36,972 nt of DNA from the NCBI GenBank assembly GCA_964463815.1, contig CAYXDZ010000002.1:1-36972 (forward strand), given 5' to 3'. Numbering within the stretch: the stretch's first letter is position 1; each line of letters opens with the position of its first letter. A program made the position numbers and the translations under genes. Below are positions 29,626 through 33,004 of this stretch, piece after piece. The notes under the pieces were generated by a model. The model made no database searches. It saw only the letters and a program-made list of their open reading frames with translations, and was not told the DNA's origin. This stretch comes from an uncultured Verrucomicrobiota bacterium. GTDB lineage: Bacteria; Verrucomicrobiota; Verrucomicrobiia; Limisphaerales; RI-55.

Positions 29626-31188
29626 CTATAGACGCTCACTTTGCCCCAGTTGTTCCTCGATTGCTGCGGCTATCGCGGCCACCAGTTGGCGGACCTGCTT
29701 CGGCGTCGTGCAGTAGGGAGGCATCAGCACGACCATGCTGCCGATCGGGCGAGTGAGCACGCCGCGCTTCGCCAGCGCTTCGCAGACGCGAATACCGGCG
29801 CGTTCGGCGAGGGCGAAGGGCTTTCTCGTGCGCCAGTCCTTCACCAGTTCGATGCCGGCGACCAACCCGGTTTGCCGGATGTCGCCGACCTGCGGGAGCG
29901 ACCAGAGCGCTTTCAGCTCTTCGCGGAGATTGTGCTCCAGTTGCGCGCGTTGCTGGAGGGAAGCCGCGCTTTGCAGCAGCTCCAGACTCGCCAGGCCGGC
30001 GGCCGCACCGAGCTGGTTGCCGGTGTAACTGTGACCGTGGAAGAAGGTCTTGAACTCCTCGTAGTCGCCGAGAAAGGCATCGAAGACCGCCTGCGTCGTC
30101 AGCGTGGCGGCCAGCGGCAGGTAGCCGCCGGTGAGACCTTTGGCGAGACAAAGGAAGTCCGGCTGCACGCCTTCGAGGTGCGAGGCGAACAAGGGTTTCG
30201 GGTTTCGGGTTTCGGGTTTCGGGTCGTGAGTGACAGCCCTGCCGAAGCCGGTCATGACTTCGTCCGCGATCAGGAGCGCGCCGTGGCCACGGGTGATTTC
30301 CGCGACGCGGCTCAACCAACCCGCCGGTTGCGGGATCAGTCCCGCCGCGCCTTGCATCAACGGTTCGAACACGAAGGCGGCGTGCGGTTCGCCGCGTTTC
30401 GCCTGTCGGGCGCACGCCTGCTCAACTTTGCCAACACACTCCCAGTTGCACTTGCGGTAGTCGCGGGCGTCGGCCCGTTCCGGCTTCGCGCGGTTGAACG
30501 GACAACGGTAACAATACGGAGCCATCACGCGGTCGGTCTTGAACAGCATTCCGCCGTAGGCTTTATGGAACAGATCAATGTGCCCGAGGCTGACCGCGCC
30601 GATGGTGTCACCGTGATAGGCGCCCTCCAGGGAGAGAAAGCGCGGTTTCGACTTCGGCCCGCGGGTACGGCGGGTGAATTCGTAGGCCAGCTTGAGCGCG
30701 ACCTCGAGCGCGGTGGAGCCGTCGTCGGAGTAGAAGACTTTGGAAAGTTTCGAGTTTCGAGTTTCGAGTTTCGAGTTGGGCACCGCAGCGCCGCCAAGCG
30801 GTAGGGCGAGGCTCCTGCCGAGTGTTGCAACAGATCTAGTTTGGGCTCCGCGGGAGCGTCGCCCTACCAACCAGGTAGGATTCGCGGATTTCACTAATTC
30901 CGCCGCCAGCAAACTGGCCGGTTCATTCGCCAGACCGAGTGCGGAGCTGTGGGCGACCTTGCCGAGTTGTCGTTTGATCGCCGCATTGATCTTCGGGTGA
31001 TTATGGCCGTGCAGGTTGGTCCAGATTGAGGAATTGCCGTCGAGGTAGCGCCGGCCGTGCTGATCTTCCAGGATCGCCCCCTTGCCGCGCATGATCACGA
31101 TCGGTTCGCGGCGCAGCCAGTCGCGCATCTGCGTGAACGGATGCCACACATGCGTGTGGTCGAGCTGGGCGAGCGAGTGGAGGGGCAT
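29626..31188 (-). CDS. bioA: Adenosylmethionine-8-amino-7-oxononanoate aminotransferase with two in-frame insertions
   Basis: 520 aa. HVWHPFTQM, SSIWTNLHGHNHP, VFYSDDGSTALEVALKLA, LIADEVMTGFGR...LFASH and LCLAKGLTGGYLPLAATLTT (PLP Lys) are all BioA/class III aminotransferase hallmarks. Extra segments lie at about 30750-30876 and 30190-30230. Confidence 0.9.
   Translation of the reverse strand: MPLHSLAQLDHTHVWHPFTQMRDWLRREPIVIMRGKGAILEDQHGRRYLDGNSSIWTNLHGHNHPKINAAIKRQLGKVAHSSALGLANEPASLLAAELVKSANPTWLVGRRSRGAQTRSVATLGRSLALPLGGAAVPNSKLETRNSKLSKVFYSDDGSTALEVALKLAYEFTRRTRGPKSKPRFLSLEGAYHGDTIGAVSLGHIDLFHKAYGGMLFKTDRVMAPYCYRCPFNRAKPERADARDYRKCNWECVGKVEQACARQAKRGEPHAAFVFEPLMQGAAGLIPQPAGWLSRVAEITRGHGALLIADEVMTGFGRAVTHDPKPETRNPKPLFASHLEGVQPDFLCLAKGLTGGYLPLAATLTTQAVFDAFLGDYEEFKTFFHGHSYTGNQLGAAAGLASLELLQSAASLQQRAQLEHNLREELKALWSLPQVGDIRQTGLVAGIELVKDWRTRKPFALAERAGIRVCEALAKRGVLTRPIGSMVVLMPPYCTTPKQVRQLVAAIAAAIEEQLGQSERL
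30193..30224. repeat. Heptanucleotide tandem array (GGGTTTC)x4 plus a partial unit, inside bioA
   Basis: Read directly from the sequence. On the coding strand it is CCGAAAC x4, translated DPKPETRNPKP. Confidence 0.95.
30746..30777. repeat. Heptanucleotide tandem array (AGTTTCG)x4 plus a partial unit, inside bioA
   Basis: Read directly from the sequence. On the coding strand it is AACTCGA x4, translated PNSKLETRNSKL. Confidence 0.95.
30800..30868. repeat. REP/MITE-like inverted-repeat hairpin element embedded in-frame in bioA
   Basis: Arms GGTAGGGCGAGGCTCC (30800-30815) and GGAGCGTCGCCCTACC (30853-30868) are reverse complements at 15/16 positions, with a 37-nt spacer. The element is translated as LVGRRSRGAQTRSVATLGRSLALP. 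Confidence 0.8.
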
Positions 31189-31200
31189 TCTTGATCTGTA

Positions 31201-31225
31201 ATTTACGATTTACGATTTACGATTT
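31201..31225. repeat. Heptanucleotide tandem array (ATTTACG)x3 plus a partial unit at the bioF stop
   Basis: Read directly from the sequence. On the coding strand, AAA ATC GTA AAT CGT AAA TCG TAA encodes KIVNRKS-stop of bioF. The array ends 13 nt before the bioA ATG. Confidence 0.95.
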
Positions 31226-32408
31226 TATTCAGCGCGGCGGCGAGCAGATCAATTTCTTCGACAGTGTTATCCGCCGTGACAGTCAGGCGTAATCGGGCGC
31301 TGCCGCGCGCCACGGTGGGGTAACGGATCGCGGGAATGAAGAAGCCGCGCTCGCGCAGGGTATCGGCCAGACGGACGGCTTCCTGTTCATCGCCAATGAT
31401 CAGCGGAATGATCGGGCTGGAAGCGGGACGGGCACTTTGCCCTTCCCGGGGGGGCAGGCTGTCCCTCACACGTTGGGCTTGGGTGGTGCGTTCCCAGACG
31501 CGGTGGCGGCGCTCCGCACCTTCGGCCGATTGGATCAATTCCACACCAGCCCGTGCGGCGGCGGCGGACGCGGGCACGGGCGCGGTTGAGAAGATGAAGC
31601 TGCGCGCCGAATTGATGAGGAAATCGATCAACGTCCGCGAGCCGCAGATGAAACCACCCGCCGCACCCACGGCCTTGCCCAGCGTGCCCATTTGAATCTC
31701 CACGCGGCCGGACAAACCAAGTTGCCCGATCAACCCGCTGCGCCGTTCACCAAACAAACCGGTGGCGTGCGCCTCATCGACCAGCAGCCAGGCACCGTAA
31801 AGATCCTTGAGTTCGACGATTTGCTGGAGCGGTGCGAGGTCGCCGTCCATCGAGAAGACGGACTCGGTGATGACGAGGCAGCGTGAGGCGTGATCCGGGT
31901 TGCGTGCGCGGGTCCAATTCAAGATACGTTCCAGGTCGGCGAGATCGTTGTGTTTGCAGACACGGAGCTTCGCGCCGCTGAGACGCGCCGCATCGACGAG
32001 GCAGGCGTGGACGCGCTTATCGAGGACGATGACGTCATCCTTGCCAAGGAGTGCCGGAATCGTACCGAGCGCCGCCGTGTAACCGGTCGAGAAGGTCAGA
32101 CAAGCTTCCGCGCCCTTGAAGGCCGCCAGCGCTGCTTCCAGTTCGTGAAATGGTTTCAGCGAGCCGCAGATCAACCGCGACGCGCCCGCGCCCGCGCCGA
32201 AGTCATGAACCGCCCGCACAGCGGCCTCCTTGAGCGCGGGATGGCCGGCCAGACCGAGGTAATCGTTGGAGGAGAAGTTGACCAACTCGCGGCCTGCGAA
32301 ACGGATGCGGGCGCCCTGTGGAGAATTGATCTCGCGCAGACGGCGGTGCAGGCCGGCGGCGTGGATTTCCCGCAGGGCAGCGTTGAGATGATTCTCCCAC
32401 TCGCTCAT
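31203..32408 (-). CDS. bioF: 8-amino-7-oxononanoate synthase
   Basis: Start taken at the internal Met (MSEWENHLNAALREIHAAGLHRRLR...). NFSSNDYLGL, DEAHATGLFG and GTLGKAVGAAGG (PLP Lys) are alpha-oxoamine synthase hallmarks. The track ORF's additional 47 N-terminal residues are Gly/Ala/Arg-rich and overlap the upstream ORF. Confidence 0.9.
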   Translation of the reverse strand: MSEWENHLNAALREIHAAGLHRRLREINSPQGARIRFAGRELVNFSSNDYLGLAGHPALKEAAVRAVHDFGAGAGASRLICGSLKPFHELEAALAAFKGAEACLTFSTGYTAALGTIPALLGKDDVIVLDKRVHACLVDAARLSGAKLRVCKHNDLADLERILNWTRARNPDHASRCLVITESVFSMDGDLAPLQQIVELKDLYGAWLLVDEAHATGLFGERRSGLIGQLGLSGRVEIQMGTLGKAVGAAGGFICGSRTLIDFLINSARSFIFSTAPVPASAAAARAGVELIQSAEGAERRHRVWERTTQAQRVRDSLPPREGQSARPASSPIIPLIIGDEQEAVRLADTLRERGFFIPAIRYPTVARGSARLRLTVTADNTVEEIDLLAAALNKIVNRKS

Positions 32409-33004
32409 CGGCGGCGTTTCAGGTTGCGCAGCACCGCGCGCAGCACCGGCAGTTGCGCCAGGTCCTTGTCCCGGCCGATGAATTCCTTGGCCGCGATAAT
32501 GCGCTCCAGTGGTAGCACGGGAATGCGAACCCCCTGCCAGTCCAGCCACACGGCGTTGCGCAACTGGGTGCGGAACGATTTCAATCTGTGTGGTTCATAC
32601 ACGAAATCGACCGACAGTCCATTGAGGGCGACGGCCTGATTGGAGAACAATTCCCCACCCAGCTTGTGCGCCACATTGATCACGCGGATGTATTGACGCG
32701 GGGGCGGGTTGATCCAGATGTCGTAATCCAGCGTGCTGCCGGGAGCACCCTGCAGGATGGCGGCGCTCATCCCGATGATCAGGAACGGAATTTTTTCAGC
32801 CTGGAGCGCGCGGAAGAGGGGAGTGAGCGGATGAACCGTTCGTTCAGCAGCCAGCGCTCGAAGGGGGACGCGGCCAGGGTGCGCGCGAACAGCCACCGCT
32901 CCTGCTCGCTGAGCAGCGGGTCTTTTGCGAGCCGGCGGTGCCACTTTTGAATCTCGTCGCGCACGACCGGAGGGTGCCTTTTTTTTTGCCATCGTCGAGG
33001 CCAA
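32405..33004 (-). CDS. Nucleotidyltransferase-fold (minimal NTase / AbiEii-like) protein; start or frame of the N-terminal third is uncertain
   Basis: The C-terminal 140 aa or so carry the pattern IPFLIIGMSAAILQGAPGSTLDYDIWI (hhGG.A...G..R.T.D.D), then VDFVY and LPLERIIAAKEFIGRDKDLAQL. The stop TGA overlaps the bioF ATG (ATGA). The N-terminal 55 aa or so (MAKKKAPSGRARRDSKVAPPARKRPAAQRAG...) look noncoding. Confidence 0.5.
   Translation of the reverse strand: MASTMAKKKAPSGRARRDSKVAPPARKRPAAQRAGAVAVRAHPGRVPLRALAAERTVHPLTPLFRALQAEKIPFLIIGMSAAILQGAPGSTLDYDIWINPPPRQYIRVINVAHKLGGELFSNQAVALNGLSVDFVYEPHRLKSFRTQLRNAVWLDWQGVRIPVLPLERIIAAKEFIGRDKDLAQLPVLRAVLRNLKRRR

What the first reader, a model, noticed from the sequence alone, without database searches (positions are those of the whole stretch)
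30193..31225. Three related heptanucleotide tandem arrays on one strand within 1 kb of bioF-bioA, two of them inside bioA coding sequence
**Seen directly.** The arrays are (GGGTTTC)x4 at 30193-30224, (AGTTTCG)x4 at 30746-30777 and (ATTTACG)x3 at 31201-31225. On the coding strand they read CCGAAAC, AACTCGA and CGTAAAT, sharing a G[AG][GT]TT[TA]C core.

Seven is not a multiple of three, so each array is read through all three frames (PKPETRNPKP; NSKLETRNSKL). Gain or loss of a single unit would frameshift bioA. The third array supplies the last codons and the TAA stop of bioF and ends 13 nt before the bioA ATG, so unit changes would alter the bioF terminus.

**Possible interpretations.** Slipped-strand (phase-variable) control of biotin synthesis, iteron-like protein binding sites, or remnants of a small repeat element. 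I did not notice similar arrays elsewhere in the window.
Basis: seen in the sequence. Interest (0 to 1): 0.6.

Follow-up and report, generated by a model that had tools for sequence, protein, structure and literature searches.

The report
In-frame heptamer repeats in biotin genes
The three 7-base tandem repeats in bioF-bioA are real, but they are not a dedicated on/off switch: they belong to a genome-wide and order-wide class of heptamer arrays that is 10-20 times denser in the biotin genes than in the comparison loci, is translated as loop peptides in working enzymes, and also forms the inverted arms around small four-helix-bundle gene cassettes.

Summary
In detail: three perfect 7-nt arrays lie at the stated coordinates, where about 0.025 are expected from the genome's own density (P about 3e-6).

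They are not peculiar to bioA. The genome, a Verrucomicrobiae (Pedosphaera/Limisphaerales-like) MAG, holds 38 perfect and about 150 TRF-detected heptamer arrays, against none in a shuffled genome. Half lie in frame inside genes, including LeuRS, UvrA and an Hsp70.

Both arrays inside bioA sit in insertions relative to solved BioA structures. Across about 100 relatives the same two BioA loops, two BioF sites and the bioF-bioA junction carry arrays with other units, heptamer-armed hairpins or GTAG hairpins, always in frame. bioFA carries 160-350 arrays per Mb against 0-39 per Mb in the comparison loci.

The closest strain differs at array 2 by exactly 3 units (21 nt). At array 1 it holds an unrelated hairpin between nearly identical flanks. 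bioA is under purifying selection (dN/dS about 0.1).

The same repeats form the inverted arms of PF05635 four-helix-bundle cassettes, and one cassette has filled and empty sites. Array 3's unit matches one cassette's arms.

Iterons are rejected.

The parts
30193..30224 (-). Array 1: (CCGAAAC) x4.6 on the sense strand, read as DPKPETRNPKP. It lies in a 12-aa insertion after GFGR in BioA, and the two diverged units on its 5' side in the sense strand (30225-30238, CTGTCAC TCACGAC) belong to the same insert.
   Evidence: TRF. Insertion relative to B. subtilis BioA 3dod/6wnn. P0003 and P0005 carry a degenerate (CCCCAAA)n array of the same length, and P0002 carries a GTAG hairpin instead.
30746..30777 (-). 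Array 2: (AACTCGA) x4.6 on the sense strand, read as NSKLETRNSKL. It extends the native N-S-K-L codons just before the KVFYSDDGS strand of BioA.
   Evidence: TRF. P0002 has 1.6 units (21 nt fewer) and P0003 has 4.6 units with one variant. The same site holds other heptamer units in many relatives.
30800..30868 (-). GTAG-type inverted-repeat hairpin (arms 30800-30815 and 30853-30868), inserted in frame next to array 2. Together they make the roughly 45-aa insert in BioA.
   Evidence: Read directly in the sequence. The insert is absent from solved BioA structures. The hairpin is shared with the congener G003 and with P0002-P0008. The family has 32-61 copies in the genome.
31201..31225 (-). Array 3: (AAATCGT) x3.6 on the sense strand at the bioF-bioA junction. 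It encodes the last BioF residues (IVNRKS) and the TAA stop.
   Evidence: TRF. The junction is 7-periodic in relatives, and AAATCGT arrays lie 15-26 nt upstream of bioA in 9 or more other loci. In this genome the same unit is otherwise found only in the arms of the C305 PF05635 cassette, plus one AGTTACG variant on C722.
29626..31188 (-). bioA (adenosylmethionine-8-amino-7-oxononanoate transaminase), 520 aa, intact, hosting arrays 1 and 2 and the hairpin.
   Evidence: TIGR00508 at 443 bits, above the 405-bit cut-off. dN/dS is 0.08-0.11 outside the inserts.
31203..32408 (-). bioF (8-amino-7-oxononanoate synthase), 401 aa from the ATG at 32408. Its C-terminus and stop codon lie in array 3. It also carries extra sequence at two sites (about 31420-31480 and about 31860-31900) where relatives carry heptamer arrays.
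   Evidence: TIGR00858 at 425 bits, just under the 426.45-bit cut-off. Start codon. bioF hot spots lie about 245 and about 685 nt upstream of bioA.

Best explanation
The three arrays are single ('solo') copies of a lineage-wide class of heptanucleotide tandem arrays. As inverted pairs, the same kind of repeat forms gene-less hairpins and brackets small PF05635 four-helix-bundle gene cassettes built like ORF-bearing 23S rRNA intervening sequences.

Proposed mechanism, step by step:

1. Array-bearing DNA is inserted. This is shown for one cassette by filled versus empty sites, and is inferred for the arrays inside genes.
2. Arrays then grow, shrink and homogenise by slipped-strand mispairing. 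This is shown by the 1.6 versus 4.6 unit difference and by unit-homogenised arrays at one site.
3. Selection keeps only copies that are stop-free, in frame (net changes in multiples of 3 units, 21 nt), lie in permissive loops or at gene junctions, and mostly encode polar residues (G-poor sense strand).

The result is that BioA and BioF stay functional while carrying repeat-encoded loop peptides, and array 3 supplies the bioF stop codon. The arrays are not a dedicated switch for biotin synthesis. For reasons not established, bioF-bioA is a strong and persistent hot spot for them throughout the order.
For: Genome-wide class:
- 38 perfect heptamer arrays against 1 each at periods 8 and 9, and 0 in a shuffled genome.
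- 148 TRF arrays of 3 or more copies: 74 inside CDSs, 10 at CDS ends, 64 intergenic.
- Arrays lie in frame in LeuRS, UvrA, Hsp70, Mfd and SNF2 genes.

Insertions at conserved sites:
- Both bioA arrays are absent from solved BioA structures.
- The spacing between flanking motifs ranges from 54 to 294 nt and from 39 to 192 nt in 76 and 91 orthologues, all in frame, with raised lag-7 and lag-14 identity.
- These sites hold arrays with other units, heptamer-armed hairpins such as (ATTTACG)n-loop-(CGTAAAT)n, or GTAG hairpins.
- The same pattern appears in one Hsp70 loop.

Slippage and turnover:
- Array 2 has 4.6 units here against 1.6 in P0002.
- Array 1 is a perfect (CCCGAAA)n here against a degenerate (CCCCAAA)n in P0003 and P0005.
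- P0002 holds a hairpin at the array 1 site between flanks that are 95-99% identical to ours.

Function retained: dN/dS is 0.08-0.11.

Link to cassettes:
- 18 of 29 PF05635 genes in 12 genomes have flanking inverted repeats scoring 14 or more, against 1 of 194 control genes. The arms are mostly heptamer arrays, and period-7 arrays are about 13 times denser near these genes.
- The C305 cassette fills a site that is empty, with a 6-23 nt spacer and no array, in four other genera.
- The unit ATTTACG is shared by array 3 and the C305 arms.
- In G006 the unit AGAATCC occurs at about 13 loci, including cassette arms, bioA and Hsp70, against 0 for the control pattern.

Precedent: the Coxiella S23p intervening sequence has a 28-bp stem plus strain-variable tandem heptamers (PMC4990558).

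Strand bias: the sense strand is G-poor in 28 of 36 CDS arrays.

Hot spot: bioF carries 350 and bioA 203 arrays per Mb, against 15-24 per Mb in comparison loci. In representative genomes alone the figures are 159 against 0.
Against: - No PF05635 gene lies in any of the 103 bio loci.
- In this window the arrays are direct and on one strand, not inverted pairs.
- No transposase, target-site duplication or observed movement accounts for dispersal. An earlier check in this scan reached the same conclusion.
- Only some cassette arms in G000 are truly 7-periodic. C305 and C143 are; C228 is 6-periodic and C261 is not 7-periodic.
- Array 2 can be read as a simple expansion of native N-S-K-L codons, so local slippage alone could explain that array.
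- Ancient descent and repeated insertion at the same sites cannot be told apart with these data.
- Why bioFA is enriched is unexplained.
- My gene caller is crude, so the CDS versus intergenic counts are approximate.
Confidence: 0.6

Rival explanations
1. These are purely local microsatellites. DNA polymerase slippage with an intrinsic preference for 7-nt registers creates and remodels arrays in place from chance proto-repeats. Nothing is mobile, and there is no relation to four-helix-bundle cassettes.
For: Over-representation of heptamer SSRs is described in many bacteria and attributed to polymerase slippage (Mrazek et al. 2007, as cited in PMC4679880 and PMC4692102). Array 2 continues the native codons AAC TCG AAA CTT and differs between strains by whole units. 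Arrays at one site keep their position while their units drift.
Against: One unit is dispersed at about 13 loci in G006, with 0 hits for the control pattern. Units recur within G000 far more often than chance would allow. Arrays arrive together with a gene as a roughly 425-nt insert at a site that is otherwise empty. Complete inverted-arm hairpins occupy the same loops. Array lengths peak at 26-33 nt instead of decaying from the minimum.
Confidence: 0.22
2. This is a contingency locus. Slippage by single units in arrays 1 and 2 frameshifts bioA on and off, and array 3 tunes the bioF end and the bioA start, giving phase-variable biotin synthesis.
For: The unit length is not a multiple of 3 and the arrays lie inside an open reading frame, so a change of one unit would truncate BioA (sequence). 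Unit number does vary between strains. bioFA is strongly enriched for such arrays. Biotin auxotrophy can be tolerated in communities (general knowledge).
Against: Only an in-frame difference of 3 units is seen. None of 76 and 91 orthologous sequences is out of frame at these sites. Six strain-level sequences of the nearest cluster do not vary there, and the one split bioA breaks elsewhere. The arrays are short (3.6-4.6 units). The same arrays occur in essential genes such as LeuRS and UvrA. bioA is under strong purifying selection.
Confidence: 0.07
3. The arrays are functional cis-elements of the bio operon at the RNA or DNA level. They could be binding sites for a heptad-reading protein such as a four-helix-bundle pentamer, or long-range stems for RNase III processing, which would explain why they persist in bioFA.
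For: Enrichment in bioFA is 10-20-fold across the whole order, at five fixed positions. The AAATCGT unit recurs at the junction, upstream of bioF, in the position-1 hairpin arms and downstream of bioA in different families. Array lengths cluster near 4-4.6 units. The Coxiella intervening-sequence stem is cut by RNase III at its first heptamer (PMC4990558).
Against: Units differ widely between lineages at the same site, and some lineages have no insert at all. There is no PF05635 gene in the bio loci. Nothing is known of any binding activity. This window has no array at either outer end of the operon.
Confidence: 0.12
4. The arrays are iteron-like binding sites for a replication initiator.
For: Only that they are direct repeats on one strand.
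Against: There is no replication gene or origin context. Two of the arrays lie inside a conserved enzyme gene. The genome has about 150 such arrays with dozens of different units.
Confidence: 0.01

Closest known systems
Over-represented heptanucleotide SSRs of bacteria: cyanobacterial STRR (Calothrix/Nostoc), GGGAATC of Xanthomonas and Nostoc (PMC4692102), TAACTGA of Beggiatoaceae, cyanobacteria and Bacteroidetes (PMC4679880)
   Same: The unit is 7 nt, with 2-6 or more tandem copies. There is a strong excess over other periods, a strand-asymmetric composition with about one G per unit, occasional inverted pairs, several unit types per genome, and length differences between close relatives.
   Different: Those repeats are described as mainly intergenic. 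Here half lie inside genes and are translated in frame in conserved enzymes. The same protein loops are occupied across an entire order with changing units. The lineage (Verrucomicrobiae) is not mentioned in the papers I read.
ORF-bearing 23S rRNA intervening sequences (Coxiella burnetii S23p IVS, PMC4990558; also Leptospira)
   Same: A PF05635/S23p four-helix-bundle gene is enclosed by terminal inverted repeats, with tandem heptamers whose number varies between strains. In this genome and its relatives the same gene family is bracketed by inverted heptamer arrays, and one of these shares the unit of array 3.
   Different: The window's arrays have no such gene and no inverted partner. They lie in protein-coding sequence and at a cistron junction, not in rRNA. 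Cleavage by RNase III is unknown here.
Rickettsia palindromic elements (RPE) inserted in frame into protein genes (from my own knowledge, not checked here)
   Same: Small dispersed repeats are inserted in frame in conserved housekeeping genes. They are tolerated as extra peptide segments, and the host genes remain under purifying selection.
   Different: RPEs are palindromic units of 100-150 bp, not tandem heptamers. They show no unit-number dynamics, and I know of no report of the same loop being refilled with different sequences.
Phase-variable simple-sequence contingency loci (Haemophilus, Neisseria; e.g. the heptanucleotide repeats of HMW1A, PMC8262952)
   Same: Tandem repeats whose slippage could change reading frame or expression.
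   Different: Here the tracts are short, lie in metabolic and essential genes, and only in-frame variants are seen. There is no association with surface or restriction-modification genes.
GTAG-tagged REP-type palindromes (PMC3733652)
   Same: The hairpin beside array 2 (GGTAGGGCGAGGCTCC...GGAGCGTCGCCCTACC) and the hairpin that replaces array 1 in strain P0002 start with GTAG and end with CTAC. They are multi-copy in the genome.
   Different: They are inserted in frame in coding sequence and alternate with heptamer arrays at the same sites. No RAYT gene was looked for.

Membership tests
Heptanucleotide long-SSR / STRR-like repeat class | Tandem head-to-tail copies of a 7-nt unit | tested here: met
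   Three arrays of 3.6-4.6 copies, each 100% matching.
Heptanucleotide long-SSR / STRR-like repeat class | Genome-wide excess of period 7 over neighbouring periods and over chance | tested here: met
   38 arrays at period 7 against 1 each at periods 8 and 9, and 0 in the shuffled genome. In relatives, 75 against 1.
Heptanucleotide long-SSR / STRR-like repeat class | Predominantly intergenic location | tested here: inconclusive
   Half of the arrays (74 of 148: 64 intergenic plus 10 overlapping CDS ends) lie outside or at the edge of CDSs although non-coding DNA is only about 12% of the genome, which is an enrichment. The other 74 lie inside predicted CDSs. The gene caller is crude.
Phase-variable contingency locus | Repeat inside a CDS or promoter whose unit is not a multiple of 3 | tested here: met
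   Arrays 1 and 2 lie inside bioA, and array 3 lies at the bioF stop and upstream of bioA.
Phase-variable contingency locus | Unit-number variants that switch the frame, seen among strains or reads | tested here: not met
   Only a 3-unit in-frame difference is seen. 0 of 76 and 0 of 91 orthologues are out of frame. Six sequences of the nearest cluster are invariant.
Phase-variable contingency locus | Restriction to a few contingency genes (surface, restriction-modification and similar) | tested here: not met
   The same arrays lie in LeuRS, UvrA, Hsp70, Mfd and others.
IVS-like PF05635 four-helix-bundle cassette | A PF05635 gene between the repeats | tested here: not met
   No such ORF is found in the window's bio locus or in the 103 related bio loci. 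The HMM recovers 29 of 29 training genes.
IVS-like PF05635 four-helix-bundle cassette | Inverted pair of heptamer arrays forming a stem | tested here: not met
   All three window arrays are direct and on one strand. Relatives do have inverted pairs at the same bioA sites.
IVS-like PF05635 four-helix-bundle cassette | Repeat unit shared with cassette arms in the same genome | tested here: met
   Array 3's unit ATTTACG equals the arms of the C305 cassette. Arrays 1 and 2 resemble the CCGAAAN arms of C58, judged by eye. In G006, AGAATCC is shared by cassette arms, bioA and Hsp70.
In-frame small-repeat insertion (RPE-like behaviour) | Extra in-frame segment relative to orthologues, made of a dispersed repeat, with the host gene still constrained | tested here: met
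   The inserts are absent from 3dod/6wnn and from P0112. The unit families are dispersed. dN/dS is about 0.1.
In-frame small-repeat insertion (RPE-like behaviour) | Location in surface loops of the protein | tested here: inconclusive
   The AlphaFold2 models are poor (pLDDT 35 and 53.6). The inserts at residues 108-146 and 315-331 are low-confidence coil between better-predicted elements. The wide length variation in orthologues supports permissive loops.
Iterons | Direct repeats next to a replication initiator gene or origin | tested here: not met
   The neighbours are bioF, bioA, a giant surface protein gene and an SDR gene. There are about 150 arrays with dozens of units genome-wide.

The most novel reading that the evidence does not exclude
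Heptamer arrays are the cognate nucleic-acid sites of PF05635 four-helix-bundle pentamers, forming one protein-repeat system. Its gene-less arms and hairpins colonise transcribed DNA, including the reading frames of enzymes. Under this reading the bioF-bioA operon of a whole verrucomicrobial order is a preferred, long-held target, so the arrays would influence processing, translation or recombination of the biotin operon and would not be passive passengers.
Probability: 0.12. Interest if true: 0.8.

Novelty: new variant of a known kind. Interest (0 to 1): 0.62.

Why it matters
Heptamer repeats are the commonest long simple repeats in bacteria, and after 35 years they still have no accepted origin or function.

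This locus shows them in a setting not described in the papers I could find. They are translated in frame inside conserved enzymes, at the same few loop positions across an entire order, and their units and even the type of element turn over between near-identical strains.

That gives a natural experiment on three questions. One is how such repeats spread, by insertion or by slippage. Another is how proteins tolerate repeat-encoded loops. The third is why one operon is a hot spot.

The shared units with four-helix-bundle cassette arms make a long-standing question testable: do these small proteins recognise heptamer arrays?

There are practical consequences too. The arrays break MAG assemblies, lengthen gene products, and could be mistaken for frameshift-prone pseudogenes or phase-variable genes.

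Tried and rejected
- **Strain variants as a substitute:** the nearest 90% cluster (9 members) shows no variation at the array sites. Its one split bioA (P0125/P0126) breaks at GKVEQ..., not at an array.
- **Structure prediction of BioA:** two AlphaFold2 runs gave poor models (pLDDT 35 with 14 sequences, 53.6 with 97), so no fold search or loop mapping was attempted.
- **My first impression of the cassette arms:** I first thought all six G000 PF05635 genes have 7-periodic inverted arms. Against a control, three have strong inverted repeats and only C305 and C143 are clearly 7-periodic. C228 is 6-periodic and C261 is not 7-periodic.
- **PF05635 gene inside or beside the bio loci:** none found. 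G008 has one 2.8 kb downstream of bioA.
- **Resemblance to the BirA operator:** I considered whether the ATTTACG/CGTAAAT arms resemble the operator half-site TGTAAAC. The half-sites are in the opposite order and I did not pursue it. This rests on memory only.
- **Assembly artefact:** rejected, because P0003 from an independent assembly carries the same 4.6-unit array 2.
- **Literature:** searches for PF05635, TIGR02436 and 'S23 ribosomal protein' returned nothing relevant beyond the Coxiella IVS paper.
- **Two malformed queries** and one alignment with the wrong strand produced nothing.
Full report
**Observation.**

Reading 29800-31600 and running TRF confirms three perfect period-7 arrays. 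They lie at 30193-30224 (GGGTTTC x4.6), 30746-30777 (AGTTTCG x4.6) and 31201-31225 (ATTTACG x3.6). No other array of 3 or more copies is in the window.

The host genes are bioA (29626-31188, minus strand, 520 aa; TIGR00508 at 443 bits) and bioF (TIGR00858 at 425 bits). bioF most likely starts at the ATG at 32408, which overlaps the upstream stop codon, giving 401 aa as in relatives.

Array 3 supplies the last bioF codons and the TAA stop. A triplet-shuffled genome has no perfect heptamer array of 3 or more copies. From the genome's own density only 0.025 arrays are expected in the 2.8-kb bioFA span (P = 2.7e-6).

**The arrays are insertions.**

Alignment with solved BioA structures (B. subtilis 3dod/6wnn) places array 1 in a 12-aa insertion after GFGR. 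It places array 2, together with a 16-nt-arm hairpin (30800-30868), in a roughly 45-aa insertion before KVFYSDDGS. Two first-reader notes on this genome said the same.

**A genome-wide class.**

The assembly is a 4.17-Mb, 734-contig MAG with 62.6% GC. Its homologues carry Pedosphaera, Verrucomicrobiae and Limisphaerales names.

- It holds 38 perfect heptamer arrays of 3 or more copies, against 1 each at periods 8 and 9.
- TRF finds 148 period-7 arrays of 3 or more copies.
- These use 27 different canonical units, some arrays are adjacent to one another, and two contigs break at long arrays.
- With a crude home-made gene caller, 74 arrays lie inside CDSs, 10 overlap CDS ends and 64 are intergenic. 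Coding density is 87%, so intergenic DNA is enriched, yet many arrays are translated.
- Host genes include LeuRS, UvrA, an Hsp70, Mfd and an SNF2 helicase.
- 70% of units have exactly one G (or one C), against 40% of random 7-mers.
- In CDSs the sense strand is the G-poor one in 28 of 36 arrays. I read this as selection for polar loop residues, which is an inference.

**The same sites are occupied across the order.**

BioA from nine other families of the order carries different inserts at exactly these two positions. Several of these are translated heptamer arrays. Examples are IYDLRFTIYD...RKSEIVNRKL, which is (ATTTACG)n plus its inverse, and RNPESRIQNPES, which is (AGAATCC)n.

In 103 related bio loci (405 kb) there are 75 perfect heptamer arrays, against 1 at period 8. 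They cluster at five places: BioA aa ~105-129, BioA aa ~300-320, the junction 15-26 nt upstream of bioA, and two bioF sites about 245 and about 685 nt upstream of bioA.

I measured the spacing between conserved flanking motifs in 76 and 91 orthologues. It ranges from 54 to 294 nt at position 1 and from 39 to 192 nt at position 2. All are in frame, and identity at lags 7 and 14 is raised.

The sequences at these sites fall into four kinds:

- four perfect units of various sequence growing out of the native N-P/S-K-L codons;
- hairpins whose arms are heptamer arrays;
- GTAG-type hairpins;
- in a few lineages, no insert at all.

**bioFA is a hot spot.**

| Region | Perfect arrays per Mb |
|---|---|
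| bioF | 350 |
| bioA | 203 |
| DNA just downstream of bioA | 23.5 |
| Hsp70 loci | 14.7 |
| ABC transporter loci | 18.6 |
| G000 genome overall | 9 |
| bioFA, GTDB representative genomes only | 159 |
| Rest of those loci | 0 |

One Hsp70 loop shows the same behaviour on a smaller scale. Ten relatives have the 93-96 nt baseline, and the others have arrays with other units or GTAG hairpins.

**Dynamics between close strains.**

I aligned our DNA with that of the three nearest homologues.

- **Array 2:** 4.6 units here, 1.6 in P0002 (exactly 21 nt fewer), and 4.6 with one variant unit in P0003.
- **Array 1:** a perfect (CCCGAAA)n here. P0003 and P0005 have a degenerate (CCCCAAA/CTCCAAA)n of the same length. 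P0002 has flanks 95-98.6% identical to ours but carries a roughly 105-nt GTAG hairpin instead.
- **Junction:** 7-periodic in all four sequences, with different units.

Outside the inserts dN/dS is 0.08-0.11, so bioA is a working gene.

Six full-length sequences of the P0002 cluster do not vary at the array sites, and one split bioA breaks elsewhere. No allele differing by one unit was seen anywhere.

**Link to four-helix-bundle cassettes.**

I searched G000 for array 3's unit. Apart from an AGTTACG variant on C722, it turned up only on contig C305. There, inverted (ATTTACG)n and (AAATCGT)n arrays bracket a PF05635 (23S rRNA IVS protein) gene.

In G000, three of the six PF05635 genes have strong flanking inverted repeats (scores 16-23), while only 1 of 194 control genes reaches 14. 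Only two of them have clearly 7-periodic arms, which corrected my first impression.

Across 12 genomes of the order, 18 of 29 such genes have flanking inverted repeats scoring 14 or more. The arms are mostly heptamer arrays, and period-7 arrays are about 13 times denser within 220 nt of the genes than beyond 400 nt.

The C305 cassette, about 425 nt, sits between a permease stop and an ATPase start. In four other genera these are 6-23 nt apart with no array between them. The arrays therefore arrive as part of inserted DNA.

In G006 the unit AGAATCC is shared by cassette arms, bioA, the Hsp70 loop and about 10 other loci, with 0 hits for the control pattern. In G000, arrays 1 and 2 belong to a [CT]CGAAA[CT] family of about 12 loci. 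No PF05635 ORF lies in any bio locus.

**Literature and earlier notes.**

An excess of heptamer SSRs is known, with a polymerase-slippage hypothesis. Specific families are described in Xanthomonas and Nostoc and in Beggiatoaceae, mainly intergenic (PMC4692102, PMC4679880).

The Coxiella 23S rRNA intervening sequence carries an S23p (PF05635) ORF in a 28-bp stem, with 2-3 tandem heptamers whose number varies by strain (PMC4990558).

After I had found the cassette link, earlier notes from this scan turned out to describe the same architecture in many phyla. A later check there found no enzyme, no target duplication and no observed movement.

I found no paper on in-frame heptamer arrays in enzyme loops or on a bio-operon hot spot.

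**Interpretation.**

The arrays are solo members of this repeat system. They are seeded by insertion or by chance proto-repeats, remodelled by slippage, and filtered by selection for frame, absence of stop codons, polarity and permissive location.

A dedicated phase-variation switch is unlikely and iterons are excluded. Two things remain unexplained:

- why bioFA is so strongly and persistently colonised;
- how one site can hold an array in one strain and a hairpin in a near-identical one.

**Structure.**

Two AlphaFold2 runs were poor (pLDDT 35 and 53.6). They only weakly suggest that both inserts are disordered coil between core elements.

Noticed in passing
window 31420-31480 and about 31860-31900 (bioF, minus strand): bioF itself carries about 16 extra residues (QRVRDSLPPREGQSAR, hairpin-like DNA) and an RNPDHASR segment holding one ATCACGC unit. 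These lie at the two bioF positions where relatives carry heptamer arrays.
   Followed up: partly
window 29626-31188 versus L101 (P0002): bioA is a mosaic relative to the nearest strain: 86% identity in the first 300 nt, 95% in the middle and 98.6% in the last 570 nt. This suggests recombination within the gene.
   Followed up: partly
L006 (G038:C57), bioA: A TAG codon replaces the Ala codon in the invariant QGAAG motif of an otherwise intact bioA. It could be a sequencing error, a pseudogene or a recoded codon; I did not examine it.
   Followed up: no
G000 contigs C92 (8999-9218) and C538 (2570-2631): Long arrays break the assembly. (ATCACGA) with at least 17 units spans an N gap, and (CGTGATG) x8.9 runs to a contig end. 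Array counts in this MAG are therefore underestimates.
   Followed up: no
G000 contig C204 (830-2480), also C43 (11184-11263) and C139 (296-362): Dense runs of several different heptamer arrays lie side by side (CTGACCA, TTACTGT, CCGCTTA, ACTGCTT, GTTGGAA and others), as if units mutate and re-expand in place.
   Followed up: no
window 30800-30868, and genome-wide: The GTAG-type hairpin GGTAGGGCGAGGCTCC...GGAGCGTCGCCCTACC has 32-61 copies in the genome. A second family (GTAGGACAGGCTTGCAGCCTGTC) has 5 copies. Both occur in frame in bioA of relatives. No RAYT gene was looked for.
   Followed up: partly
G008:C2:87973-88284: A PF05635 four-helix-bundle gene lies 2.8 kb downstream of that genome's bioA. 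ATTTACG arrays lie 222-558 nt downstream of bioA in L031, L041 and L069, so that in L069 bioA itself is bracketed by inverted arrays.
   Followed up: no
contig carrying P0125 and P0126 (JGI, 5683 nt): bioA is split into 266-aa and 279-aa products at ...GKVEQ/ACARQ..., away from any array. It could be a frameshift or a sequencing error in one strain.
   Followed up: partly
window 32405-33004 (minus strand): A 199-aa ORF of unknown function ends in ATGA, overlapping the bioF start, so it is probably co-transcribed with bioFA. It is conserved in position in L101 and L103 (163 and 149 aa, with no Pfam hit on record).
   Followed up: no
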